A stretch of DNA of 34,738 bases, taken from Emiliania huxleyi CCMP1516. Taxonomy: Eukaryota. The stretch's first letter is position 1, and each line of letters opens with the position of its first letter. The translations under genes were made by a program, and so were the position numbers. Below are positions 21,998 to 33,893 of this stretch, one piece after another. Under the pieces are notes generated by a model. The model saw only the letters and a list, made by a program, of their open reading frames with translations. It was not told where the DNA came from and did not search any database. The DNA lies in the NCBI RefSeq assembly GCF_000372725.1, contig NW_005201791.1, positions 179,788 to 214,525 on the forward strand. The letters are read 5' to 3'.

Positions 21998-23704
21998 TCA
22001 AACCCCCTGCCACTCACGAATCTGCCGGCGCAGCGTGTGGTTGGGGGCGAGGAAGCTGTGCACGAGCGCCTCGCCCGTCATCGGGCTCGTCGACTTGGTC
22101 GCGAGCCAGCGCTCGATTGCCGACCGCTCGTACGAATGCCCGTCCGCCGCCATCACCGGGTCACTCATGAGCTCGGTCGTGATCGGGCAGATGAAGTCGG
22201 CCGGCGGCTCCTCCTCCCTCGGAGCCGGCGCCTCTGCAGCCGAGGACGGCCCTTGCGCCTCCGCCGCCCGCCTCCCCTCCTCCAGCCTCGCGCTCTCCTC
22301 GAGCGCCGCCGCAAGCTCCGCCTCCTCCGTCGCCGCCACCGCCTCCTCCTCCGCCTCCTCTGCCGGCGCCTCGGGCTCTTGCGACGGCCCAGCGCCTCCC
22401 CCGCCGCCCTGCTTCTTCTTCTTGCCCCTCTTCTTGGCCGTCTTCTTCTCCTCGGCGCGCTTCTCCGCCTCTGCCTCTGACAGCAGCGCCGCCGCAGCCT
22501 CCTCGGCCGCCCTCTCGGCCTCCACCCTCTCTGCCGCCGCCCTCTCGGCCACTGCCCTCTCCACCCTCGCCTCAATCTCTGCTCTCTTCGCCTCCCTCGC
22601 CGCCGCCACAAGTGCGCGCTCGCACTCGCCGTGGCCCTCCTCCTTGGCCAGCTGCAGCGCCGTCTCGCCGCTCGCAGCAGTGCGCGCCGCTGTGTCTGCG
22701 CCCGCCCGCAGCAGGCAGAGCACGACGGCGGAGTGGCCTTCCAGGCACGCAACGTGCAGGGGTGTGAAGCCGTCCTCCGCGGCTCGGTCGACCGCCGCGC
22801 TGGCGCCGAGGAGCAGCCGAACGCACTCGAGCTGGCCCTGCTGGCTCGCGATGTACAGCGGCGTGGCGCCGTCCTCCTTGGCTTGGTTGACCGCCGCACC
22901 CGCTTCGAGGAGCAGCCGGGCGACGTCGAGGTGGCCCTTCTGGCACGCGATGAACAGCGGCGTGGCGCCGTCCGCCTTGGCTTGGTTGATCGCCGCGCTG
23001 GCCTCGAGAAGCAGCTGGGCGCACTCGAGGTGGCCCTTCTCGCACGCGATGAACAGCGGCGTGGCATCGTTGATGTTGGCCTGGTTAACCGCCGCGCCAG
23101 CAGCGAGAAGCAGCCGGACGATCACGAGGTGACGCTCCTGGCACGCGACGTACAGCGGCGTGAAGCCGTCAGCGTCTGCTTGGTTCACCGCAGCGCCAGC
23201 GGCGAGCAACAGACGGACGCAGTCGATCTGGCCATCCAGGCTCGCAACGCTCAGCGGCGTGGTGCCGTCATTCTCGGCTTGGTTGACCGCCGCGCTGCCC
23301 TCGAGAAGCAGCTGGGCGCACTCGAGCTGGCCCTCCTGGCACGCGATGGACAGCGGCGTGGCGCCGTTGACGTCGGCTTGGTCGGCGTCAGCGTTGGCGC
23401 CGAGGAGCAGCCCGGCGCACTCGAGCTGGCCCTCTTGGCACGCGACGAACAGCGCGGAGCAGCCACGGCCCGTCGTCGCCGCCACGCTCGCGCCGCTCTC
23501 GAGCAGCAGCCGCACCGCGTCGGCCTGCCCGTGCCGAGCGGCGATAATCAGCAGCGTAAAGTGGTCCTCGGCCTCGAGCCGCGCGTCGAGCAGGGCCGTG
23601 AGCGCCCGACCACGCGTCCACCCGGCGAGGAGGGCGCGCAGCAAGGTCAAATCGCCCCGGCGCAGGTCGGCGATCAAGGTCGGGCTGATGGCGTTCATGT
23701 GCAT
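21998..23704 (-). CDS. Ankyrin-repeat U-box E3 ubiquitin ligase, intronless
   Basis: Nine full plus one partial 33-aa ankyrin repeats (G.TPL.IAC..G.LE...LLL), an Ala/Glu coiled coil, a Lys-rich patch, and a C-terminal U-box PADFICPITTELMSDPVMAADGHSYERSAIERWL...SPMTGE.L....LAPNHTLRRQI. Start taken at ATG 23704 (23698 is an alternative) because the upstream frame runs through a simple repeat. Confidence 0.93.
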   Translation of the reverse strand: MHMNAISPTLIADLRRGDLTLLRALLAGWTRGRALTALLDARLEAEDHFTLLIIAARHGQADAVRLLLESGASVAATTGRGCSALFVACQEGQLECAGLLLGANADADQADVNGATPLSIACQEGQLECAQLLLEGSAAVNQAENDGTTPLSVASLDGQIDCVRLLLAAGAAVNQADADGFTPLYVACQERHLVIVRLLLAAGAAVNQANINDATPLFIACEKGHLECAQLLLEASAAINQAKADGATPLFIACQKGHLDVARLLLEAGAAVNQAKEDGATPLYIASQQGQLECVRLLLGASAAVDRAAEDGFTPLHVACLEGHSAVVLCLLRAGADTAARTAASGETALQLAKEEGHGECERALVAAAREAKRAEIEARVERAVAERAAAERVEAERAAEEAAAALLSEAEAEKRAEEKKTAKKRGKKKKQGGGGGAGPSQEPEAPAEEAEEEAVAATEEAELAAALEESARLEEGRRAAEAQGPSSAAEAPAPREEEPPADFICPITTELMSDPVMAADGHSYERSAIERWLATKSTSPMTGEALVHSFLAPNHTLRRQIREWQGV

Positions 23705-23856: not shown

Positions 23857-24029
23857 CTCCGGGGCCTATTCAAAGGCTGGCGCGTGATCACAAGATACAC
23901 TGGAACAACCCTGCCGCCAAATCCCAAAAATCGCTTCGCCTGCGGCGCGCTCTTGCGCCCCTCATACCTCGAGCGCAATCCATAAGTAGGAGACGCTCAC
24001 TGTCGCCATTCAGGCGCCTGATCTTTCAG

Positions 24030-24989
24030 CAAAGCGATGGCCTACCAGGCTCAGTGCCCATCCCGCCGGACGCAGCGCCAGTGTCGGAGGGGCTGATTCG
24101 CTATGAAGAGATCAAGTTCGGGAAGCAGCTCGGCGAGGGCAGCTTCGGCATGGTCTACCAGGCCGTGTGGAAGCACGACGACGTCGCCGTCAAAAAGATC
24201 AAGGACAAGCTGCTCCGTAAGAATGCCGAGGCCGCAAAGGTCGAGTTCATCAAGGAGCTCAAGCTGCTGCGCTCGCTCACAAATCGTCACGTGGTGCGCT
24301 TCTGCCAAGCGAAGACTTTATACGCCACGCGCAACATACGCACTCCTCTCGTACTCCTCTCGTTGTCTCCGCCCGATGCGCCGCCCGCGCTCTCATCATC
24401 CGGCTCACTCTCTGATGGAGCAGGTGCAGTGCTTTGGCGGTCACGCGTCCGGAAATCACTTCTTCATCGTCACTGAGCTCATGGAGCGCGGCTCCCTCGC
24501 GGACTGCCTCGACAAGCACGCAGACGAGTTTGCGTGGGCACGCCTCGGAAAGAAGGTGCTGCTTGGCGCCGCCAAGGGCCTGCTTCACATCCACAGCTGC
24601 GATATGGTGCACTTTGACATCAAGCCGCTCAACGTGCTCATCAACGAACACAACACGGCAAAGCTCGCCGACGTGGGTCTGGCCAAGAGGCTCACGACAA
24701 CTGTCACCAAGCCCGGCGGGTGGACGCCCGCATATGCCGCGCCGGAGATCCTCAACCGCGAGGGCGCCAACCAGAAGAGCGACATTTTCTCGTTCGGGCT
24801 GATGATATGGCAGGTTTATACGCAGCTCAACAGCCAAGTCTCGGCGACAAATGCGACGCCGACCCGCGCTGGCCGGTGGCGGGGATCCTCACGGGCGCCG
24901 GCACCACACACGGTGGTGCGCTTGCGAAGGAAATGGGCCGCCGCCCTAGCGCAGTGCAGATGAAGGAGGAGCTTGAGCACCAACTTTAG
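24030..24989 (+). pseudogene. TKL-group protein kinase, 5'-truncated with a frameshift (pseudogene or sequence error)
   Basis: LGEGSFGMVY, VAVKK, E of helix C, one intron 24294-24423, IVTELMERGSL, HFDIKPLN, DVG, YAAPE, SDIFSFG. The C-terminus homologous to the 33368-33556 paralog (WPVA.LL.GAG..H.GALA...RRP) is reached only through a frameshift at about 24829. No in-frame ATG precedes the domain. Confidence 0.7.
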
Positions 24990-25315
24990 CGTGTAGGGGG
25001 GCGTGCGGCTGATATCCGGGCATGCTTCTAGGCGTGAATCGCGTCGCGTGCATGGTCGCGTGGGTGGTTTTTGATATCGCCTCGTAAGCCTGGTAAGGTA
25101 AGGTTGCTATTGCTCAAAATCTCAGGCAGGCAAGACCTATACCGGCAGAGAAAAGGAAGGGCGGTCCGGCGCGGGACAAGGGCGGCGAATGGGCAGCAGC
25201 GGACGCGTCTCGCGGCCCCGCGATGGCAGTGGCCGTACCTGCGGGCGGGAGGGCGCAGGCGGTGCTGCCCGGCGAAGCCGCGTTTTGCGGCGCGCGAGGG
25301 CGTAGCCCCGAGACG

Positions 25316-25730
25316 CTGCACACGTCGGGCGTCGGGACGAGCCTCTTCATGGCGCCCGAGGTGCGCGCCCAGTCGAGCGCGCGCAGAGGGCCGCCGACGG
25401 TGGGCTACGACGAGCGGTGCGACACCTTCTCGTACGGGATGCTGCTCTGGTCCCTCATGCACGAGGTGGCCGTCCCGCCCTCCTCCGCCTCCGCGTCGCG
25501 GCCGCGCGTGAGCTTGCCGCCGACCGCGCCGTCTACTCGGGCCTGATCACCCGCTGCTGGCAGCAAGACCCGGCGATGCGGCCGAGCATGCAGGAGGTGG
25601 CCGCCGAGACGATCTCCCTCACGCAGCGCTCCAGCAAGCTACGCGCTGCCCGCGTCCGACGCCCGCGCGCCGGCACCACACATGGCGGGCCGGCCGTCGG
25701 GCGAGACCGTGCACGTAGGCCCGGTCAACA
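25316..25730 (+). pseudogene. Protein kinase C-lobe remnant
   Basis: TSGVGTSLFMAPEV...YDERCDTFSYGMLLW, then after a frameshift LITRCWQQDPAMRPSMQEV, then AGTTHGG...RRP resembling the neighbouring kinase tail. No N-lobe or catalytic loop is visible. Confidence 0.65.
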
Positions 25731-25900
25731 GCTGCTCAAACAAGCTCGACGGCGAGCCCGCGTCGGAGCAGGAAGGAGACGTTGGATTCGTTGTGTCCGG
25801 AGGACTCCTGGAGTGTGTACGTTGATTTACGGCTCATGTTGGTGTAACCCGATTCGCACCTGCGTGTTTAGAGTGACTACAACGAACGAAGCCCGGCCCT

Positions 25901-26174
25901 GTTTTCTTTTTTTGAGAGCGCCTTCGTTGTTAATAGTACAAACCCAATGGTCCTCTGCGAGCGGTCCTTCGTTGCAGTCGCACACACGCACACGCCACAC
26001 CGCACCGCGCGCCCGCCCACCGCCCCGCCCAGGCGGGAAAGAGATGAGGGGATGGGACAGCAAAGGAGGAACCCCAAACACGTATGGGAGGGTTCAGTAA
26101 TGCGCCACGCTGCCCGGCGTCTCTCACTTTCCGGGACAGCCCCGCCCTTGTGAGGCAGGAAAGTGACGGCTACC
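25901..26174 (-). mobile_element. ~280-bp retroposon 3' end with poly(A), copy 2
   Basis: The reverse complement matches 4689-4940 and ends ttaacaacgaaggcgctctcaaaaaaagaaaac. Confidence 0.78.
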
Positions 26175-26842
26175 CCGTACGCCCAGTTCTAGGTTCTACT
26201 CCCCTGGGTCATAAGGTACGTCACTTTGTTTGTAACTCAGAAACTAGTTCCTGGCCAAATGGCTCCCGCTGGCTATATCTTTTATGAGCTTAGCCTTCGA
26301 TGTTATGAAACAACGCAAGGCGGACATGGCATATCGCTCTCGGGCCCACAGACATCCCGCACACTCGCCGCACACCCGCCGCCCCCGCGCGCGCCCCGCC
26401 CCGGCCGGGAGAAAGGGGAGTGACAGTTTGGGACGGCAACAGAACGAGTATGTTGAGTCCTGGCTCAACAACGCAGATAAAGGACTTGGGTGGTCCGGCC
26501 CACAAGTCGGGCTCATGCGCCCCGACTGACCGATCTACCGCACTGATCACTTCCGCCCCCTCGCTCCCAACCCATCCACCTCGCCTCGGGCCGCGCCGCG
26601 CGATCTCGGGCGATCTCGCGCGATCTCGGGCGATCTCGGAGCTCCACGCCACGCCTCTCCACCCCGCCCCACCTCACCCACCGCCGCGCCGCGCTATCTC
26701 GGGCGATCTCGGAGCGTCGCTCGCGCGGCGTCACACCTGCTCAAAAAGGAAGGAGGTTGGAGGCAGGAGGTCACGCCCCATCCAGAGCGCCGTCGTCGCC
26801 GGGTTTTTGGCCCCCGGGTCGTCGCCCGACGGTTGCTGCGCG

Positions 26843-27069
26843 CACATCCTGAGCGAAGTTCCCTAGTCACCCGCGGCCGGACTCCATCCGGCACGCGTCG
26901 CTGGGCGCTCAGAGCCGCGTCGGCGATGACGGTCACACAGGAGCGACACACAGAACCACAAGACAAGACACTCAGCCAAACTGACTGCCACACATCCTGA
27001 GCGAAGTTCCCTAGTCACCCGCGGCCGGACTCCATCCGGCACGCGTCGCTGGGCGCTCAGAGCCGCGTC
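26843..27069. repeat. Two identical 79-bp direct repeats, each a long imperfect hairpin
   Basis: 26843-26921 and 26991-27069, separated by 69 bp. Nested stems CTGAGCG/CGCTCAG, CCTAG/CTGGG, CGCG/CGCG, GCCGGA/TCCGGC. Confidence 0.85.
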
Positions 27070-27232
27070 CCCTGCTCGCCACCCCGACGCCCAAGGCGCC
27101 CGAGTGAACGACAGGCGGCACGCGAAGACTGATATTTGTTCTGTTTTTTTATTTGTCAGGCATTTGAGACGCTCTGTCAGTCTCTCAGTCCGAGCCGGCC
27201 GCGACTCGCGATCGCGCGGTTCGCCCACGAGA

Positions 27233-28559
27233 ATGCCCTGCAACGACATCCTACCAGGCGCCGAGAATGCGCGTTGTCCGCCACGCCGAGGCGGTAAGGA
27301 CGTCCGGCGGGCGCGCTCGGCGCTGGTCCTCTACACCGAGGCCTCGCGGGAGCGGCTGCGGGCGGCCAACCCGCATGCCAAGTACGCCGAAGTGACTCGC
27401 CTCGCGTCCGCCGAGTGGAAGGCGCTGGGCCTGAGCGCCCGGGCCGACTGGGAAAAGGTGGGTCTCCAGCCCGGCTGGCGCACGGGCCATGCCAGCGCAC
27501 ACTGCGCCGCACCCAGCCCTCGGCGGAACCCCCCGCGCAGGCGGCGGTGGACGACAAGCTGCGGTTCGAGCGCGAGAGGGCGGCGGCGGACGCCGCGGCC
27601 GGCGGCGCGGCCGGCGGCGCGGCCGGCGGCGCGGCCGGCAGCGCTGCTGCAGGCGGGCCGGTGACCGGATTAGCCAGCAGCATTCTGAGCGGGCAGTTGC
27701 CAGTCGGGCCGGGCTCGCCGATGCTGCGGAGCGCCGGCGGCGGCGCTGGGCTGCAGGCGCCGTCGTCGGGCGCGCGCCGAACCCAGCGGCGCATCGTGGT
27801 GAGCAGCAGCGACGACGACTCGAGCGACGAGGAGGATGCCGCCGCCGGTCGGGAGCCCGGCGGGAGCGAGGGTGCGCATATGCACACACTTATACACATA
27901 CGCATATGTCTATGCGCACCATTCTCCCCTCTCCCTTCTGCCCTCTCCCCTTTCTCCTCTCCCTGCCGCGTCCACTTCACCACCCCCACCACCCCCGCTG
28001 ACACGAGCGCGGCGCATGCGGCATGGCCACGGCAACGTGTGCAGCACGTGCAGCACATGCGGCATGGCCGCGGCAAAGTGTGCAGCACATGCGGCATGGC
28101 CGCGGCAAAGTGTGCGGCACATGCGGGACCCGACCACGGCGCCCACGTCCACGTCCAACGCCCGGCAGGCGCCGAGGAGGCCTCCCCGCCGGCCGCCGCG
28201 CTCGCGCCGCGGGGCGGGGATGACTGGAGGGTGGTGGGAAAGGAGGAGGAGGAGGAGAAGGCGCCGCCGCAGGAGGAGGAGAGTGCCGTCGACGACCTCG
28301 CGCGCCTCGTCGCTGCGGCAGGGCTGGGCGACGCGCCGGCGGCACAGGGGCAAGAGGGCGCCGCTGCGGCACAGGGGCAAGAGGGGCTCGAGGCGGCCGA
28401 AGAGCAAGAGGGGCTTCCCGCGGCGGCGGCGGCGCGGGCGTGCAGGATGATCGGCACGCGCTCACCGGCCCGGGCCCGCAAGCTGGCGCAGCAGGCGCCA
28501 CCACCGTCACCACCTCTACCACCGACCCCCCCCCCCCCCCACACACCACCACCACCACA
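27233..28559 (+). CDS. HMG-box protein 5' exons, running into a gap; possibly the N-terminus of the downstream kinase
   Basis: RRARSALVLYTEASRERLRAANPHAKYAEVTRLASAEWKALGLSARADWEK|AAVDDKLRFERE is a complete HMG box across intron 27458-27540. Low-complexity exons follow. ATG 27233 is tentative. Confidence 0.8.
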
Positions 28560-30162
28560 NNNNNNNNNNNNNNNNNNNNNNNNNNNNNNNNNNNNNNNNN
28601 NNNNNNNNNNNNNNNNNNNNNNNNNNNNNNNNNNNNNNNNNNNNNNNNNNNNNNNNNNNNNNNNNNNNNNNNNNNNNNNNNNNNNNNNNNNNNNNNNNNN
28701 NNNNNNNNNNNNNNNNNNNNNNNNNNNNNNNNNNNNNNNNNNNNNNNNNNNNNNNNNNNNNNNNNNNNNNNNNNNNNNNNNNNNNNNNNNNNNNNNNNNN
28801 NNNNNNNNNNNNNNNNNNNNNNNNNNNNNNNNNNNNNNNNNNNNNNNNNNNNNNNNNNNNNNNNNNNNNNNNNNNNNNNNNNNNNNNNNNNNNNNNNNNN
28901 NNNNNNNNNNNNNNNNNNNNNNNNNNNNNNNNNNNNNNNNNNNNNNNNNNNNNNNNNNNNNNNNNNNNNNNNNNNNNNNNNNNNNNNNNNNNNNNNNNNN
29001 NNNNNNNNNNNNNNNNNNNNNNNNNNNNNNNNNNNNNNNNNNNNNNNNNNNNNNNNNNNNNNNNNNNNNNNNNNNNNNNNNNNNNNNNNNNNNNNNNNNN
29101 NNNNNNNNNNNNNNNNNNNNNNNNNNNNNNNNNNNNNNNNNNNNNNNNNNNNNNNNNNNNNNNNNNNNNNNNNNNNNNNNNNNNNNNNNNNNNNNNNNNN
29201 NNNNNNNNNNNNNNNNNNNNNNNNNNNNNNNNNNNNNNNNNNNNNNNNNNNNNNNNNNNNNNNNNNNNNNNNNNNNNNNNNNNNNNNNNNNNNNNNNNNN
29301 NNNNNNNNNNNNNNNNNNNNNNNNNNNNNNNNNNNNNNNNNNNNNNNNNNNNNNNNNNNNNNNGGCCGGGGGGGGGAGGGGGGGGAAGGAGGAACCTCTT
29401 CCCAAGAGCGCCACTCTTGGAGCGCCGCCACCACCACCCAGAGCGCTGCAAGCAGCGCCGGGCAATGACGGCTTACCGCCCACCAGTTGCCCCCTCTTGA
29501 GAGGAGACGGGCCGTCTCAGGCCGCCTCTCGACCTTGTCCTCTCGACCCCTTCCTCTCGACCCCTTCCTCTCGACCCCTTCCTCTCGACCCCTTCCGGGC
29601 GACCCCTTCCTCTCGACCCCTTCCTCTCGACCCTTTCCTCGAGACCCCTTCCTCTCGACCCCTTCCTCTCGACCCCTCCTCNNNNNNNNNNNNNNNNNNN
29701 NNNNNNNNNNNNNNNNNNNNNNNNNNNNNNNNNNNNNNNNNNNNNNNNNNNNNNNNNNNNNNNNNNNNNNNNNNNNNNNNNNNNNNNNNNNNNNNNNNNN
29801 NNNNNNNNNNNNNNNNNNNNNNNNNNNNNNNNNNNNNNNNNNNNNNNNNNNNNNNNNNNNNNNNNNNNNNNNNNNNNNNNNNNNNNNNNNNNNNNNNNNN
29901 NNNNNNNNNNNNNNNNNNNNNNNNNNNNNNNNNNNNNNNNNNNNNNNNNNNNNNNNNNNNNNNNNNNNNNNNNNNNNNNNNNNNNNNNNNNNNNNNNNNN
30001 NNNNNNNNNNNNNNNNNNNNNNNNNNNNNNNNNNNNNNNNNNNNNNNNNNNNNNNNNNNNNNNNNNNNNNNNNNNNNNNNNNNNNNNNNNNNNNNNNNNN
30101 NNNNNNNNNNNNNNNNNNNNNNNNNNNNNNNNNNNNNNNNNNNNNNNGAGGTGTGGGCCTAG

Positions 30163-31963
30163 GCGGGTTTGGCGTCGTGTAAGCGGCGGAGTGGAGCCAC
30201 GGAGCCGTCGCCGTCAAGCGGATCAGGCCCTCTCCTCTGCCACCCACAGCCCACGCACCGGGCCCTCTCCTCTCCCCTGGGGTGCCCCCCCCCCCTCCGC
30301 TGCCCTAGCCACCCACTGCCCACCCGCCCCTCTCCTCCCCCAGCCACTGCCCCCCCCTCCGCTGCCCCCGCCTCCCGCTGCCCCCCCCTCCCGCTGCCCC
30401 CCCCACCCACTGCCCACCCACCCGCTGCCCACGAGGCGAGATCACGGTCGAGATCGAGATCACGGTCGAGATCGAGATCACGGTCGAGATGACGGCCGAG
30501 GGTTGTCTGCGGCTGTAGTCCGGAGCTGGTCGACTCGCACGGTGACGAGGCGCGAGCCGAGTTCCGGCGCGCGAGAGATGGCTCGAGATTCCTCGAGATT
30601 CCCCGAGATTCCTCGAGATTCCTCGAGATTTCTCGAGTTCCGGCGCGCGAGCTCGAGCTGCGAGATATGGGGGAGATATGGGGGAGATATGGGAGACGGG
30701 AGTTCCGGCGCGCGAGAGATGGCCCGAGATTCCCCGAGATTGCTCGAGCTGCTCTCCGGTACTCTCGGGAGTATCTCGGGGCCACCTCGCTGTCATCTCG
30801 CTGCCATCTCGCTGTCATCTCGCTGCCATCTCGCTGTCATCTCGCTGCCATCTCGCTGCCGAGGTCTCTAGACACGAGCTCGAGCTACCGCACCACCCAA
30901 GGACCTGAACCCACACCGGGTTCGAGACTCTGGAGGTATGGTACGCGCAGGCACGAGCTAGAGTTGCTCTGCTCCCTGCGGCACCGGCACATCGTCCAGT
31001 GCTACGGCGGCGACGCGGCGCGCGAGCTCTTCATCGTGACCGAGCTGATGGAGCGAGATCCGCGCGAGATCACCCCGAGATTGTCCGAGATCAGGCGCGC
31101 GAGCTCTTCATCGTGACGGAGCTGATGGAGCGAGATCCGCGCGAGATCACCCCGAGATTGTCCGAGATCAGGCGCGCGAGCTCTTCATCGTGACCGAGCT
31201 GATGGAGCGAGATCCGCGCGAGATCACCCCGAGATTGTCCGAGATCAGGCGCGCGAGCTCTTCATCGTGACCGAGCTGATGGAGCGAGGGTCGCTTGAGG
31301 ACTGCCTGCGCGCACACCCCGCCGAGTTCCGGCGCGCGAGAGATGGCCCGAGAGATGGCCCGAGAGATGGGGGAGAGATGGGAGATGTGAGTTCCGGCGC
31401 GCGAGAGATGGCCCGAGATTGCCCGAGATTGCCCGAGATTGCCGAGTTTTGGTGGCAGCGGCTACCACACCATCAAGAACCCTGAACCCACACTGGATTC
31501 GACACTCTCGGGGTATGGTACTAGGTGGGAGCGGCTCGGCCGGCGCGTCCTCCTCGACACAGCAAAGGGGCTCCTCTACTTGCACGGCCGCGGGCTCGTC
31601 CATTTTGACGTCAAGCCACTCAACATCCTCGTCTCGGCGCGCACTCTATCTCCCCACATCTCCCGTATCTCCCCCTCATCTCCCCATATCTCGCAGCCGC
31701 TCGACGTCCTCGTCTCGCACTCCTAGACACGGAACATCTCCCCACATCTCCCGTATCTCCCCCCCTATCTCCCCATACCTCCCATATCTCCCCTGCACTC
31801 CTGTGTCCCAACCCACACTCGAGCGGACCCATACTCCGCTGTACTCGGCAGTGCTCCGCTGTATGCACGGTATTCGCCCCCCTCGTATCCACGCGGTGCT
31901 CTGTATACACTGCACAGCACTGTCCTCCCGCCCCCGAGGCTGGGCACACACCCAACACTCACA

Positions 31964-32013
<50 letters not shown>

Positions 32014-32074
32014 CCCTCCCTCCCTCCCTCCCTCCCTCTCTCTCTCTCTCTCGCACACACACACACACGCGCAC

Positions 32075-32117
<43 letters not shown>

Positions 32118-33556
32118 NNNNNNNNNNNNNNNNNNNNNNNNNNNNNNNNNNNNNNNNNNNNNNNNNNNNNNNNNNNNNNNNNNNNNNNNNNNNNNNNNNN
32201 NNNNNNNNNNNNNNNNNNNNNNNNNNNNNNNNNNNNNNNNNNNNNNNNNNNNNNNNNNNNNNNNNNNNNNNNNNNNNNNNNNNNNNNNNNNNNNNNNNNN
32301 NNNNNNNNNNNNNNNNNNNNNNNNNNNNNNNNNNNNNNNNNNNNNNNNNNNNNNNNNNNNNNNNNNNNNNNNNNNNNNNNNNNNNNNNNNNNNNNNNNNN
32401 NNNNNNNNNNNNNNNNNNNNNNNNNNNNNNNNNNNNNNNNNNNNNNNNNNNNNNNNNNNNNNNNNNNNNNNNNNNNNNNNNNNNNNNNNNNNNNNNNNNN
32501 NNNNNNNNNNNNNNNNNNNNNNNNNNNNNNNNNNNNNNNNNNNNNNNNNNNNNNNNNNNNNNNNNNNNNNNNNNNNNNNNNNNNNNNNNNNNNNNNNNNN
32601 NNNNNNNNNNNNNNNNNNNNNNNNNNNNNNNNNNNNNNNNNNNNNNNNNNNNNNNNNNNNNNNNNNNNNNNNNNNNNNNNNNNNNNNNNNNNNNNNNNNN
32701 NNNNNNNNNNNNNNNNNNNNNNNNNNNNNNNNNNNNNNNNNNNNNNNNNNNNNNNNNNNNNNNNNNNNNNNNNNNNNNNNNNNNNNNNNNNNNNNNNNNN
32801 NNNNNNNNNNNNNNNNNNNNNNNNNNNNNNNNNNNNNNNNNNNNNNNNNNNNNNNNNNNNNNTGTGGAGAAGGGTACCTTACCCTTACCTTAGGCGCACA
32901 ACGTGGCGAAGCTCTCCGATGTGGGGCTCACCAAGAAGCTCAACAACACGCTCACGCGGCCGGGTGTTTGACGCCCGCCCACGCCGCCCCCGAGATTACC
33001 CGAGATTACCCGAGATTACCCGAGATTAGGCGGCTGGACGCCCGCCTACGCCGCCCCCGAGATTCTGGCGCGGCAGGGCGCCAACGAGACGTCCGACATC
33101 TACTCGTTCGGCCTCGTCGTGTGGCAGGAGCAGCCACTCCCCCGCACCGCCCACAGCACCTGAACCCACACTGGGTTCGGTACGCTGGAGGTAGGGTGGC
33201 AGCGGCACACACTCGCCCGGAAAGGAGTAGGCTAGCGCAGTCGTGTGTGTGTGTCATGAGGGGAGCGTCCACCCGTGTCGCTCCGCTGGCGGTGGCGACA
33301 CGCCCGCTTCACCTCCTTGCCCCGCGGCTGCACACGATCATCCGTTCACCGCGGCTCTCTTCGGCAGGTGTATACGCACCGAGTGCCATCGCCCTTCGAG
33401 CCCTGCCGGGTGGCGGCCAGCTGGCCCGTCGCGCCGCTGCTCGTCGGCGCGGGGCGCGAGCACGAAGGGGCGCTCGCGCTGGACAAGGAGAGGCGGCCGA
33501 GCGGCGTCCATCTCAAGGACGAGCTCGACGCTCTCGCCGCGGGCGGCGGGCCTTGA
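30163..33556 (+). CDS. TKL-group protein kinase domain, paralog of 24030-24989, split by many introns; one in-frame TAA near a gap
   Basis: Exons 30163-30226, 30519-30566, 30951-31017, 31249-31331, 31525-31636, 32894-32963, 33030-33127, 33368-33556 give GGFGVV*AAEWSHGAVAVKRI...EFRHELELL...IVTELMERGSL...HFDVKPLNILV...LSDVGL...GGWTPAYAAPE...SDIYSFG...RRPS. TAA at 30180-30182 replaces the expected Tyr and lies about 30 nt from a gap edge. Confidence 0.8.
30886..30943 (+). mobile_element. ~58-bp hairpin/MITE-like intronic element (also at 31463-31520 and about 33138-33198)
   Basis: tacc.cacc...cctgaacccacac.gg.ttcg...ggtatggta: imperfect terminal inverted repeats and an inner GAACCC/GGGTTC stem, found in three different introns. 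Confidence 0.65.
31018..31248 (+). repeat. Three near-identical 77-bp units, each a complete GC...AG intron module
   Basis: Units start at 31018, 31095 and 31172; the true exon starts at 31249 with the same first 40 nt. Confidence 0.9.
32863..32893 (+). mobile_element. SINE-like (CCTTA)n-tailed element, 3' end of intronic copy 4 (rest in gap)
   Basis: tgtggagaagggtaccttacccttaccttag; the TAG is the acceptor for exon 32894. Confidence 0.7.
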
Positions 33557-33672: not shown

Positions 33673-33804
33673 AAGGTAAGGTAAGGTAAACTTCTCCACA
33701 CACACGAGGTGGTGGGGCAAGGGGGGGCAACCCTCGCGTCTCCACGTCTGACGACAGGAGCCCCACGGCATTCAAAGTGCAAGGCCCAGTGCGCGTGGGT
33801 GAGC

Positions 33805-33808
<4 letters not shown>
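33673..33808 (-). mobile_element. SINE-like (CCTTA)n-tailed element, intergenic copy 5
   Basis: Reverse complement: caccgctcacccacgcgcactgggccttgcactttgaatgccg...gttgcccccccttgccccaccacctcgtgtgtgtggagaagtttaccttaccttacctt, preceded by a (CA)n run. Confidence 0.85.

Positions 33809-33893
<85 letters not shown>
33807..33893. repeat. (TG)n microsatellite
   Basis: Pure TG run abutting the head of the SINE-like element. Confidence 0.95.

What the first reader, a model, noticed from the sequence alone, without database searches (positions are those of the whole stretch)
24030..33556. Internal natural experiment: two paralogous kinase domains with one versus eight introns and no shared positions
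Seen: the kinases at 24030-24989 and 30163-33556 are collinear (IVTELMERGSL, HFDxKPLN, PGGWTPAYAAPEIL, same odd tail). The first has one intron (RHV|VQC) that is absent from the second. The second has eight at other sites, most with duplication and filler hallmarks. Inference: rapid intron gain after duplication, with the first gene showing the empty-site state. A processed retrocopy is less likely because the first gene does have an intron, though later gain after retroposition is possible.
Basis: partly seen in the sequence, partly recalled or inferred. Interest (0 to 1): 0.72.

Follow-up and report, generated by a model that had tools for sequence, protein, structure and literature searches.

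The report
Algal kinase gene still gaining introns
In the bloom-forming alga Emiliania huxleyi, one kinase domain carries eight introns; seven are missing from its closest relatives and so were likely gained recently, one of them is absent from some copies of the same gene and likely arose by a short duplication, while the neighbouring one-intron kinase is an old relative and likely a dead fragment rather than a clean control.

Summary
The 1-versus-8 intron contrast is real: no positions are shared, and RNA or a cDNA-derived protein supports the junctions. It is not a clean natural experiment. Gene A (24046-24989) is a 5'-truncated, frameshifted copy (dN/dS about 0.9) of an EDR1-type kinase. 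Gene B is the kinase half of an HMG-box kinase starting at 27233. They are 57% identical, saturated at four-fold sites, and split before B split from its orthologues in other lineages (AU p=0.0001). B's orthologues give the real test: 7 of 8 introns are absent there, so likely gained on the E. huxleyi branch. The eighth (WQ|VY) is shared and older. The strongest result lies inside B. Intron 3 (31018-31248) is three copies of 40 bp of exon plus 37 bp of 10-bp-repeat filler, and it is absent from two other DNA copies of B that keep the flanking introns. The likely mechanism is local duplication that supplies a GC donor, with repeat DNA supplying the AG. Recent intron gain in this species is already listed (introners); I found no report of this route or polymorphism.

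The parts
24046..24293 (+). Gene A exon 1 (kinase N-lobe). Homology to the intact orthologue starts at 24046; the EDR1-peptidase-like N-terminus is missing
24294..24423 (+). Gene A intron (130 bp, GT-AG, phase 0, RHV|VQC); also in L001, absent in A-clade L012 and P0076; splicing not checked in RNA
24424..24989 (+). Gene A exon 2, with a 2-bp insertion near 24827 that shifts the family-specific tail out of frame
27233..28559 (+). Predicted N-terminal half of gene B (HMG box, low-complexity linker) with two predicted introns, 27458-27540 and 27872-28168; linked to the kinase across two N gaps by homology to P0074/P0142
30148..30162 (+). 3' end of B intron 0 (acceptor only; donor in gap 29682-30147)
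   Evidence: (X10 record 8 leaves the window sequence at 30162)
30163..30226 (+). B kinase exon 1; TAA at 30180-30182 (TAC in run X8)
30227..30518 (+). B intron 1 (292 bp, GC-AG)
30519..30566 (+). B kinase exon 2
30567..30950 (+). B intron 2 (384 bp, GC-AG): EFRR(E) duplicates, 10-11-bp repeats, about 60-bp dispersed element at the 3' end
30951..31017 (+). B kinase exon 3
31018..31248 (+). B intron 3 (231 bp, GC-AG) = 3 x (40 bp exon copy + 37 bp repeat filler ending in AG); absent from DNA copies L035 and X4
31249..31331 (+). B kinase exon 4
31332..31524 (+). B intron 4 (193 bp, GC-AG); donor region identical over 26 nt to that of intron 2; same 60-bp element at the 3' end
31525..31636 (+). 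B kinase exon 5 (HFDVKPLN)
31637..32893 (+). B intron 5 (GC-AG; 745 N; 533 bp in L035); exon copy, repeats, dispersed element of about 110-140 bp at the 3' end
32894..32963 (+). B kinase exon 6
32964..33029 (+). B intron 6 (66 bp, GT-AG): 28-bp copy of the next exon running into the 10-bp repeat
33030..33127 (+). B kinase exon 7
33128..33367 (+). B intron 7 (240 bp, GA-AG, WQ|VY); position shared with orthologues, so older
33368..33556 (+). B last exon, family-specific tail and stop

Best explanation
Gene B carries eight kinase-domain introns, seven of which are absent from its orthologues and so were likely gained on the Emiliania branch, likely by short local duplications of exon sequence joined with repeat DNA; gene A is an old paralogue and likely a dead fragment. 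Shown: intron 3 is three units of 40 bp of exon plus 37 bp of CCCGAGAT-type filler, and it is missing from other DNA copies of B. The empty site has no AG, so the donor (GC) comes from the upstream exon copy and the acceptor from the filler. Inferred: a break or slippage is repaired by copying nearby sequence, the genome's common 10-11-bp repeat joins at a microhomology (exon CGAG or CCCGAGATT), and a spliceosome that accepts GC donors removes the insert without changing the protein. Older introns then grow by further duplications and small dispersed elements. Intron 4's 5' part was likely copied from intron 2, about 765 bp upstream.
For: Orthologue read-through: P0074, P0142 and P0075 at sites 0-4; P0134/P0083 and L016 at sites 5-6; L030 at sites 3-4. 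Each is shown to be unspliced DNA by breaking at its own intron. The B clade has support 95/86, and A+B monophyly is rejected. Intron 3 is absent in L035 with introns 2 and 4 retained. It is also absent in an X4 contig of depth 71 that starts 8 nt inside intron 2 and ends 22 nt inside intron 4. The four exon copies differ at 1 site among themselves but at 2 of 40 from L035. Exon copies in introns 3-6 beat all 300 shuffles. A 26-nt junction string is identical at the donors of introns 2 and 4, with 0 expected by chance. B is under purifying selection (1 nonsynonymous, 6 synonymous against L035); A is not (12 and 4). GC donors are 56% and GA 4% of curated junctions in this species (PMC4028052, passages).
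Against: The direct repeats of intron 3 allow exact loss by recombination, so an empty copy could be a reversion; an assembler could also collapse the array in L035. X4 also holds a minor contig (depth 16.6) with an exon-filler-exon piece that I could not place. The RNA joint over intron 3 could come from intron-less alleles. Introns 1 and 7 show no duplication signal and intron 2 only a marginal one. EFRW, the change at the intron 4 site, also occurs in a Prymnesium parvum paralogue, so it is not a sure scar. Seven gains in B against one in A is not significant (two-sided binomial p about 0.07, by hand). No repair pathway was tested.
Confidence: 0.7

Rival explanations
1. Introner-type elements made the B introns; the exon copies and 10-bp repeats are later decoration or long target-site duplications.
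For: E. huxleyi CCMP1516 is listed with 653 introners in 5 families of mean length 37-70 bp (PMC9860276 supplement rows); the intron 3 filler is 37 bp. A 60-bp element sits in introns 2, 4 and 7 (3 matches, 0.13 expected), with summed depth near 11,900 against about 70 on exons in X4 (not a copy number). A second element ends intron 5 and recurs four times elsewhere in the window.
Against: Introns 3 and 6 contain neither element. A 40-bp duplication is far longer than the 3-9-bp TSDs quoted for introners. The B introns are not copies of one another over their length. In intron 7 the element lies inside an older intron.
Confidence: 0.2
2. The ancestor was intron-rich, and A and the relatives lost their introns (for example through a cDNA); empty copies of intron 3 are recent losses.
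For: Intron 7 is shared beyond B, so loss in the A clade is plausible there. Intron 3's direct repeats make exact excision easy.
Against: It needs independent loss of the same seven introns in the A clade, in two B-orthologue lineages and in the outer clades, each of which has its own unshared introns. Near-identical exon copies in introns 3 and 6 cannot be old.
Confidence: 0.07
3. The repeats and several 'introns' are artefacts of a gappy assembly.
For: There are three N gaps within gene B, an inverted duplicate elsewhere in the window, and a TAA near a contig end.
Against: An independent contig (L035) has introns 2 (in part), 4, 5, 6 and 7 at 93-99% identity. Exon-filler sequence of intron 3 is seen in X7 and X8. 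RNA joints match the predicted lengths.
Confidence: 0.03

Closest known systems
[quoted passage not shown]
   Same: A duplicated exonic segment supplies a splice site, and splicing leaves the protein unchanged.
   Different: The classic model duplicates AGGT to give both sites. Here the empty site is GCG|GCG, the donor is GC from the exon copy, and the AG comes from inserted repeat filler.
Segregating new introns of Daphnia pulex, attributed to staggered double-strand-break repair (PMC4202315, passages)
   Same: Presence/absence within a species, direct repeats, stepwise lengthening of young introns.
   Different: GC-rich genome, GC-AG splicing, filler made of a genome-wide 10-11-bp repeat, and one intron apparently copied from another in the same gene.
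Introners (PMC9860276, passages and supplement rows)
   Same: Recent gain in E. huxleyi is already listed there; short dispersed elements sit next to acceptors in introns 2, 4 and 5.
   Different: B introns are composites, not whole-intron copies; no terminal inverted repeats were looked for; introns 3 and 6 lack the elements.
EDR1/CTR1-type (Raf-like) kinases, Pfam PF14381 + PF07714
   Same: The intact orthologue of A (L001) has both domains above Pfam's cut-off.
   Different: The window's A lacks the EDR1 domain. B has an HMG box instead. The family has HFD for HRD and DVG for DFG, and a private C-terminal tail.

Membership tests
Recent duplicate pair usable as an internal control | Paralogues young enough that silent sites are unsaturated | tested here: not met
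   21 of 65 four-fold sites identical (32%) against 39% at saturation
Recent duplicate pair usable as an internal control | A and B are each other's closest relatives | tested here: not met
   p-AU 0.00013 with 22 rows; p 0.059 in an earlier 19-row tree without the close B orthologues
Recent duplicate pair usable as an internal control | A is empty at every site because it never had the intron | tested here: inconclusive
   Consistent for sites 0-6; site 7 is filled in B orthologues and P0128, so loss in A or parallel gain
Tandem genomic duplication intron | Intron holds a tandem copy of the flanking exon | tested here: met
   Introns 3 (40 bp, exact) and 6 (28 bp); weaker in 4 and 5
Tandem genomic duplication intron | Both splice sites come from a duplicated AG|GT-like motif | tested here: not met
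   Intron 3 empty site has no AG; the acceptor lies in the filler
Tandem genomic duplication intron | Insert is spliced out of RNA | tested here: inconclusive
   Met for introns 1, 2, 4-7. For intron 3 the joint is seen, but intron-less alleles give the same joint
Segregating intron gain | Filled and empty copies in DNA of the same species or species complex | tested here: met
   Empty in L035 and X4; exon-filler sequence in the window, X7 and X8
Segregating intron gain | Empty state ancestral | tested here: met
   Outgroup orthologues P0074, P0142, P0075 and L030 are empty; reversion in single strains not excluded
Introner | Whole intron repeated at unrelated sites | tested here: not met
   Only parts recur; tested within the window and fetched loci only, no genome held
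Introner | Match to the published E. huxleyi introner families | not testable with these tools
   Two motif searches of the stored, cut supplement found nothing
Processed retrocopy (gene A) | All parental introns lost | tested here: not met
   A keeps the intron of its intact orthologue L001: a DNA-level fragment
EDR1/CTR1-type kinase | PF14381 domain before the kinase | tested here: not met
   Met in L001; no EDR1-like exon found in the window by tblastn

The most novel reading that the evidence does not exclude
E. huxleyi runs an ongoing, transposon-independent intron factory: its 10-11-bp repeat seeds at exon microhomologies during local duplication, donates the acceptor, and with GC donors makes instantly spliceable introns. 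These introns segregate among strains, and can be copied from one site of a gene to another. Many such presence/absence introns would then exist genome-wide and could be timed in population data.
Probability: 0.35. Interest if true: 0.78.

Novelty: new variant of a known kind. Interest (0 to 1): 0.5.

Why it matters
How new spliceosomal introns arise is an open question with few caught-in-the-act cases. A gene with a filled and an empty form of the same intron, and with the source of each splice site readable from the sequence, makes the duplication-plus-filler route testable in a cultured alga with many sequenced strains. The paralogue contrast by itself is ordinary: old paralogues often share no introns. 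A practical point: the annotated model EMIHUDRAFT_54443 fuses dead gene A to an unrelated kinase fragment.

Tried and rejected
No whole genome is held for this window, so genome-wide counts of the elements and a search for an intact A copy in this strain were not possible. The 1.84-billion-protein search returned no result. The genome paper (doi 10.1038/nature12221) is not held; that it describes 10-11-bp repeats in introns is my recall only, and a search for it found 0 papers. Runs X11 and X13 gave no exon joints: no conclusion. A's expression and splicing were not tested; both read-laying runs went to B. Trees with long outgroups were poorly resolved, and the AU test there did not reject A+B monophyly. 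Rejected: an acceptor at 24029 as A's true 5' end (L001 has contiguous exon there, and identity simply stops at 24046); L013 as sharing B intron 0 (P0139 indicates a deletion in that contig); alternative GT/GC donors for intron 7 (out of frame by inspection; P0066 supports GA). Three look-ups of earlier findings returned nothing.

Full report
Source. The best protein hit of gene A is EMIHUDRAFT_54443 of Emiliania huxleyi CCMP1516 at 99% identity, so the window is from that assembly. No whole genome was held.

Observation. Gene A has one 130-bp GT-AG intron at RHV|VQC. The gene B kinase has seven complete introns plus an acceptor whose donor is in a gap. The proteins align at 136 of 238 residues and share no intron position. 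Of 16 runs listed I laid eight. In the first four, X10 (poly-A RNA) and X1 show joints skipping 292, 384, 231 and 193 bases as predicted; X11 and X13 show none. A transcriptome-derived protein (P0066) matches the model across introns 4-7, which supports the GA donor of intron 7. GC and GA donors are normal here: 56% and 4% of 241 curated junctions (PMC4028052, passages read).

What A is. A metagenome contig (L001) holds an intact orthologue with an EDR1/CTR1/ARMC3 peptidase-like domain, the kinase and the same intron. The window matches it only from 24046 to 25021 (97%). The window copy has no N-terminus, a 2-bp insertion before the tail, and 12 nonsynonymous against 4 synonymous changes (ratio 0.9). 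It is most likely a decaying DNA-level fragment, not a retrocopy, since it keeps the intron. The annotated model splices it onto an unrelated kinase fragment near 25500.

What B is. Proteins P0074 and P0142 join an HMG box to this kinase and align with window 27287-28554 as well as with the kinase exons. B is therefore predicted to start at 27233, with two more introns, across two assembly gaps. Against an independent copy (L035) B shows 1 nonsynonymous and 6 synonymous changes. The TAA at 30180 reads TAC in run X8; it is an error near a contig end or a strain allele.

Age of the pair. Four-fold sites are saturated (32% identical, 39% expected). In a 22-row tree (near-duplicates and distant kinases left out) A falls with L001, L012, P0076 and P0136 (97/93). 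B falls with L035, P0074+P0134, P0142, P0075, L016 and L030 (95/86). The two clades are sisters (96/93), and forcing E. huxleyi A+B together is rejected (p-AU 0.00013). An earlier 19-row tree without the close B orthologues did not reject it (p 0.059). The pair is old and cannot by itself show speed.

Intron map. Of 66 loci fetched, 18 are close family members by my reading. B orthologues that break at their own introns, and so are unspliced DNA, read through B sites 0-4 (P0074, P0142, P0075), sites 3-4 (L030) and sites 5-6 (P0134/P0083, L016). Site 7 (WQ|VY) is filled in L016 and P0134 and in P0128 outside A+B. It is older, and A either lost it or others gained it in parallel at CAG|GT. A's intron is absent from L012, which has its own intron elsewhere. 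Other relatives carry none or one intron in the kinase, each at a private site; some of those with none may be transcripts. So seven gains fall on the B branch (0.21 changes per site) and one on the A branch (0.22). That contrast is suggestive only (binomial p about 0.07, by hand), and the B gains are not independent.

An intron caught young. Intron 3 is three 77-bp units: 40 bp identical to the start of exon 4, plus 37 bp of CCCGAGAT-type filler ending in AG. Left unspliced it gives a stop in the second unit (read). L035 lacks it while keeping introns 2, 4, 5, 6 and 7 at 93-99% identity. In 1 of 4 further runs (X4) a contig of depth 71 skips exactly 231 bases while including 8 bases of intron 2 and 22 of intron 4, so it is unspliced, DNA-like sequence. 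X7 and X8 hold exon-filler pieces, and X7, X2 and X8 break inside the repeated exon segment. The four copies differ at one site among themselves and at two from L035, which favours a duplication younger than the split of these alleles. Against this reading: collapse by recombination or by an assembler is possible, X4 has an unplaced minor exon-filler contig (depth 16.6), and RNA joints cannot tell splicing from an empty allele.

Mechanism. Shown: exon copies in introns 3, 4, 5 and 6 exceed all 300 shuffles; intron 2 is marginal; introns 1, 7 and A's show none. In introns 3 and 6 the exon copy runs into the repeat where the exon itself reads CGAG or CCCGAGATT. The donors of introns 2 and 4 share 26 identical bases, 11 of them exonic, found nowhere else in the window, and about 110 further bases align. 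Orthologues read EFAW where B reads EFRW, though a P. parvum paralogue also has EFRW. A 60-bp element lies in introns 2, 4 and 7, and another ends intron 5 and recurs in the window. Inferred: templated repair or slippage duplicates a short exon stretch, repeat DNA supplies the acceptor, GC-tolerant splicing removes it, and later events lengthen it. No repair enzyme was tested. Confidence 0.7; the introner route 0.2.

Known context. Tandem genomic duplication, break repair and intron transfer are established routes, and higher gain in paralogues has been reported (PMC3443670, passages; PMC3265369 and PMC4974935, abstracts). Daphnia has segregating new introns with direct repeats (PMC4202315, passages). 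E. huxleyi CCMP1516 is listed with 653 introners in five families (PMC9860276, supplement rows; the file was cut when stored, and family sequences were not found, so they may bear on the introner question). PMC12130899 does not mention the genus (term search). Nine searches (listings seen) showed no report of this route or of intron polymorphism in this species; the genome paper itself was not held.

Verdict. Observation confirmed; interpretation partly supported. The paralogue contrast is a weak design, but orthologues and alleles of B support recent gain, with one intron likely still segregating. New variant of a known kind; interest 0.5.

Noticed in passing
window 25300-25650: Fragment of an unrelated kinase C-lobe with a frameshift; the annotated model EMIHUDRAFT_54443 splices gene A onto it, a likely annotation artefact.
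   Followed up: partly
window 21998-23698 (-): Intronless ankyrin-repeat + U-box gene of about 560 aa, head-to-head with the truncated gene A.
   Followed up: partly
L016, L030, L062: B orthologue from a lineage with (TA)n-rich introns; its introns hold several degenerate tandem copies of acceptor plus exon, a similar duplication habit at different sites.
   Followed up: partly
P0003-P0143: The kinase family swaps N-terminal modules freely: EDR1 peptidase-like, ankyrin, HMG box, and by eye a ubiquitin-like domain. Motifs HFD and DVG replace HRD and DFG.
   Followed up: no
window 1-2500 and 6440-12500: Two other intron-rich genes (by eye a HEN1-like methyltransferase and an AzgA-like permease; names recalled, not tested) show the same exon-copy-plus-repeat introns, e.g. 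1324-1350/1399-1425 and 11947-11975/12019-12047.
   Followed up: no
window 14607-14995 vs 7960-8314: Inverted 88%-identical copy of a permease exon region between gaps; second allele or misplaced contig.
   Followed up: no
window 1518-1655, 10714-10828, 12095-12160, 33673-33886 (-): Dispersed element of about 110-140 bp, ending near an acceptor in several introns; introner-like.
   Followed up: partly
window 3575-4262 vs 5105-5801; 4689-4939 vs 25924-26174: Intergenic repeats of about 700 bp (92%, direct) and 250 bp (94%, inverted), likely mobile-element remains.
   Followed up: no
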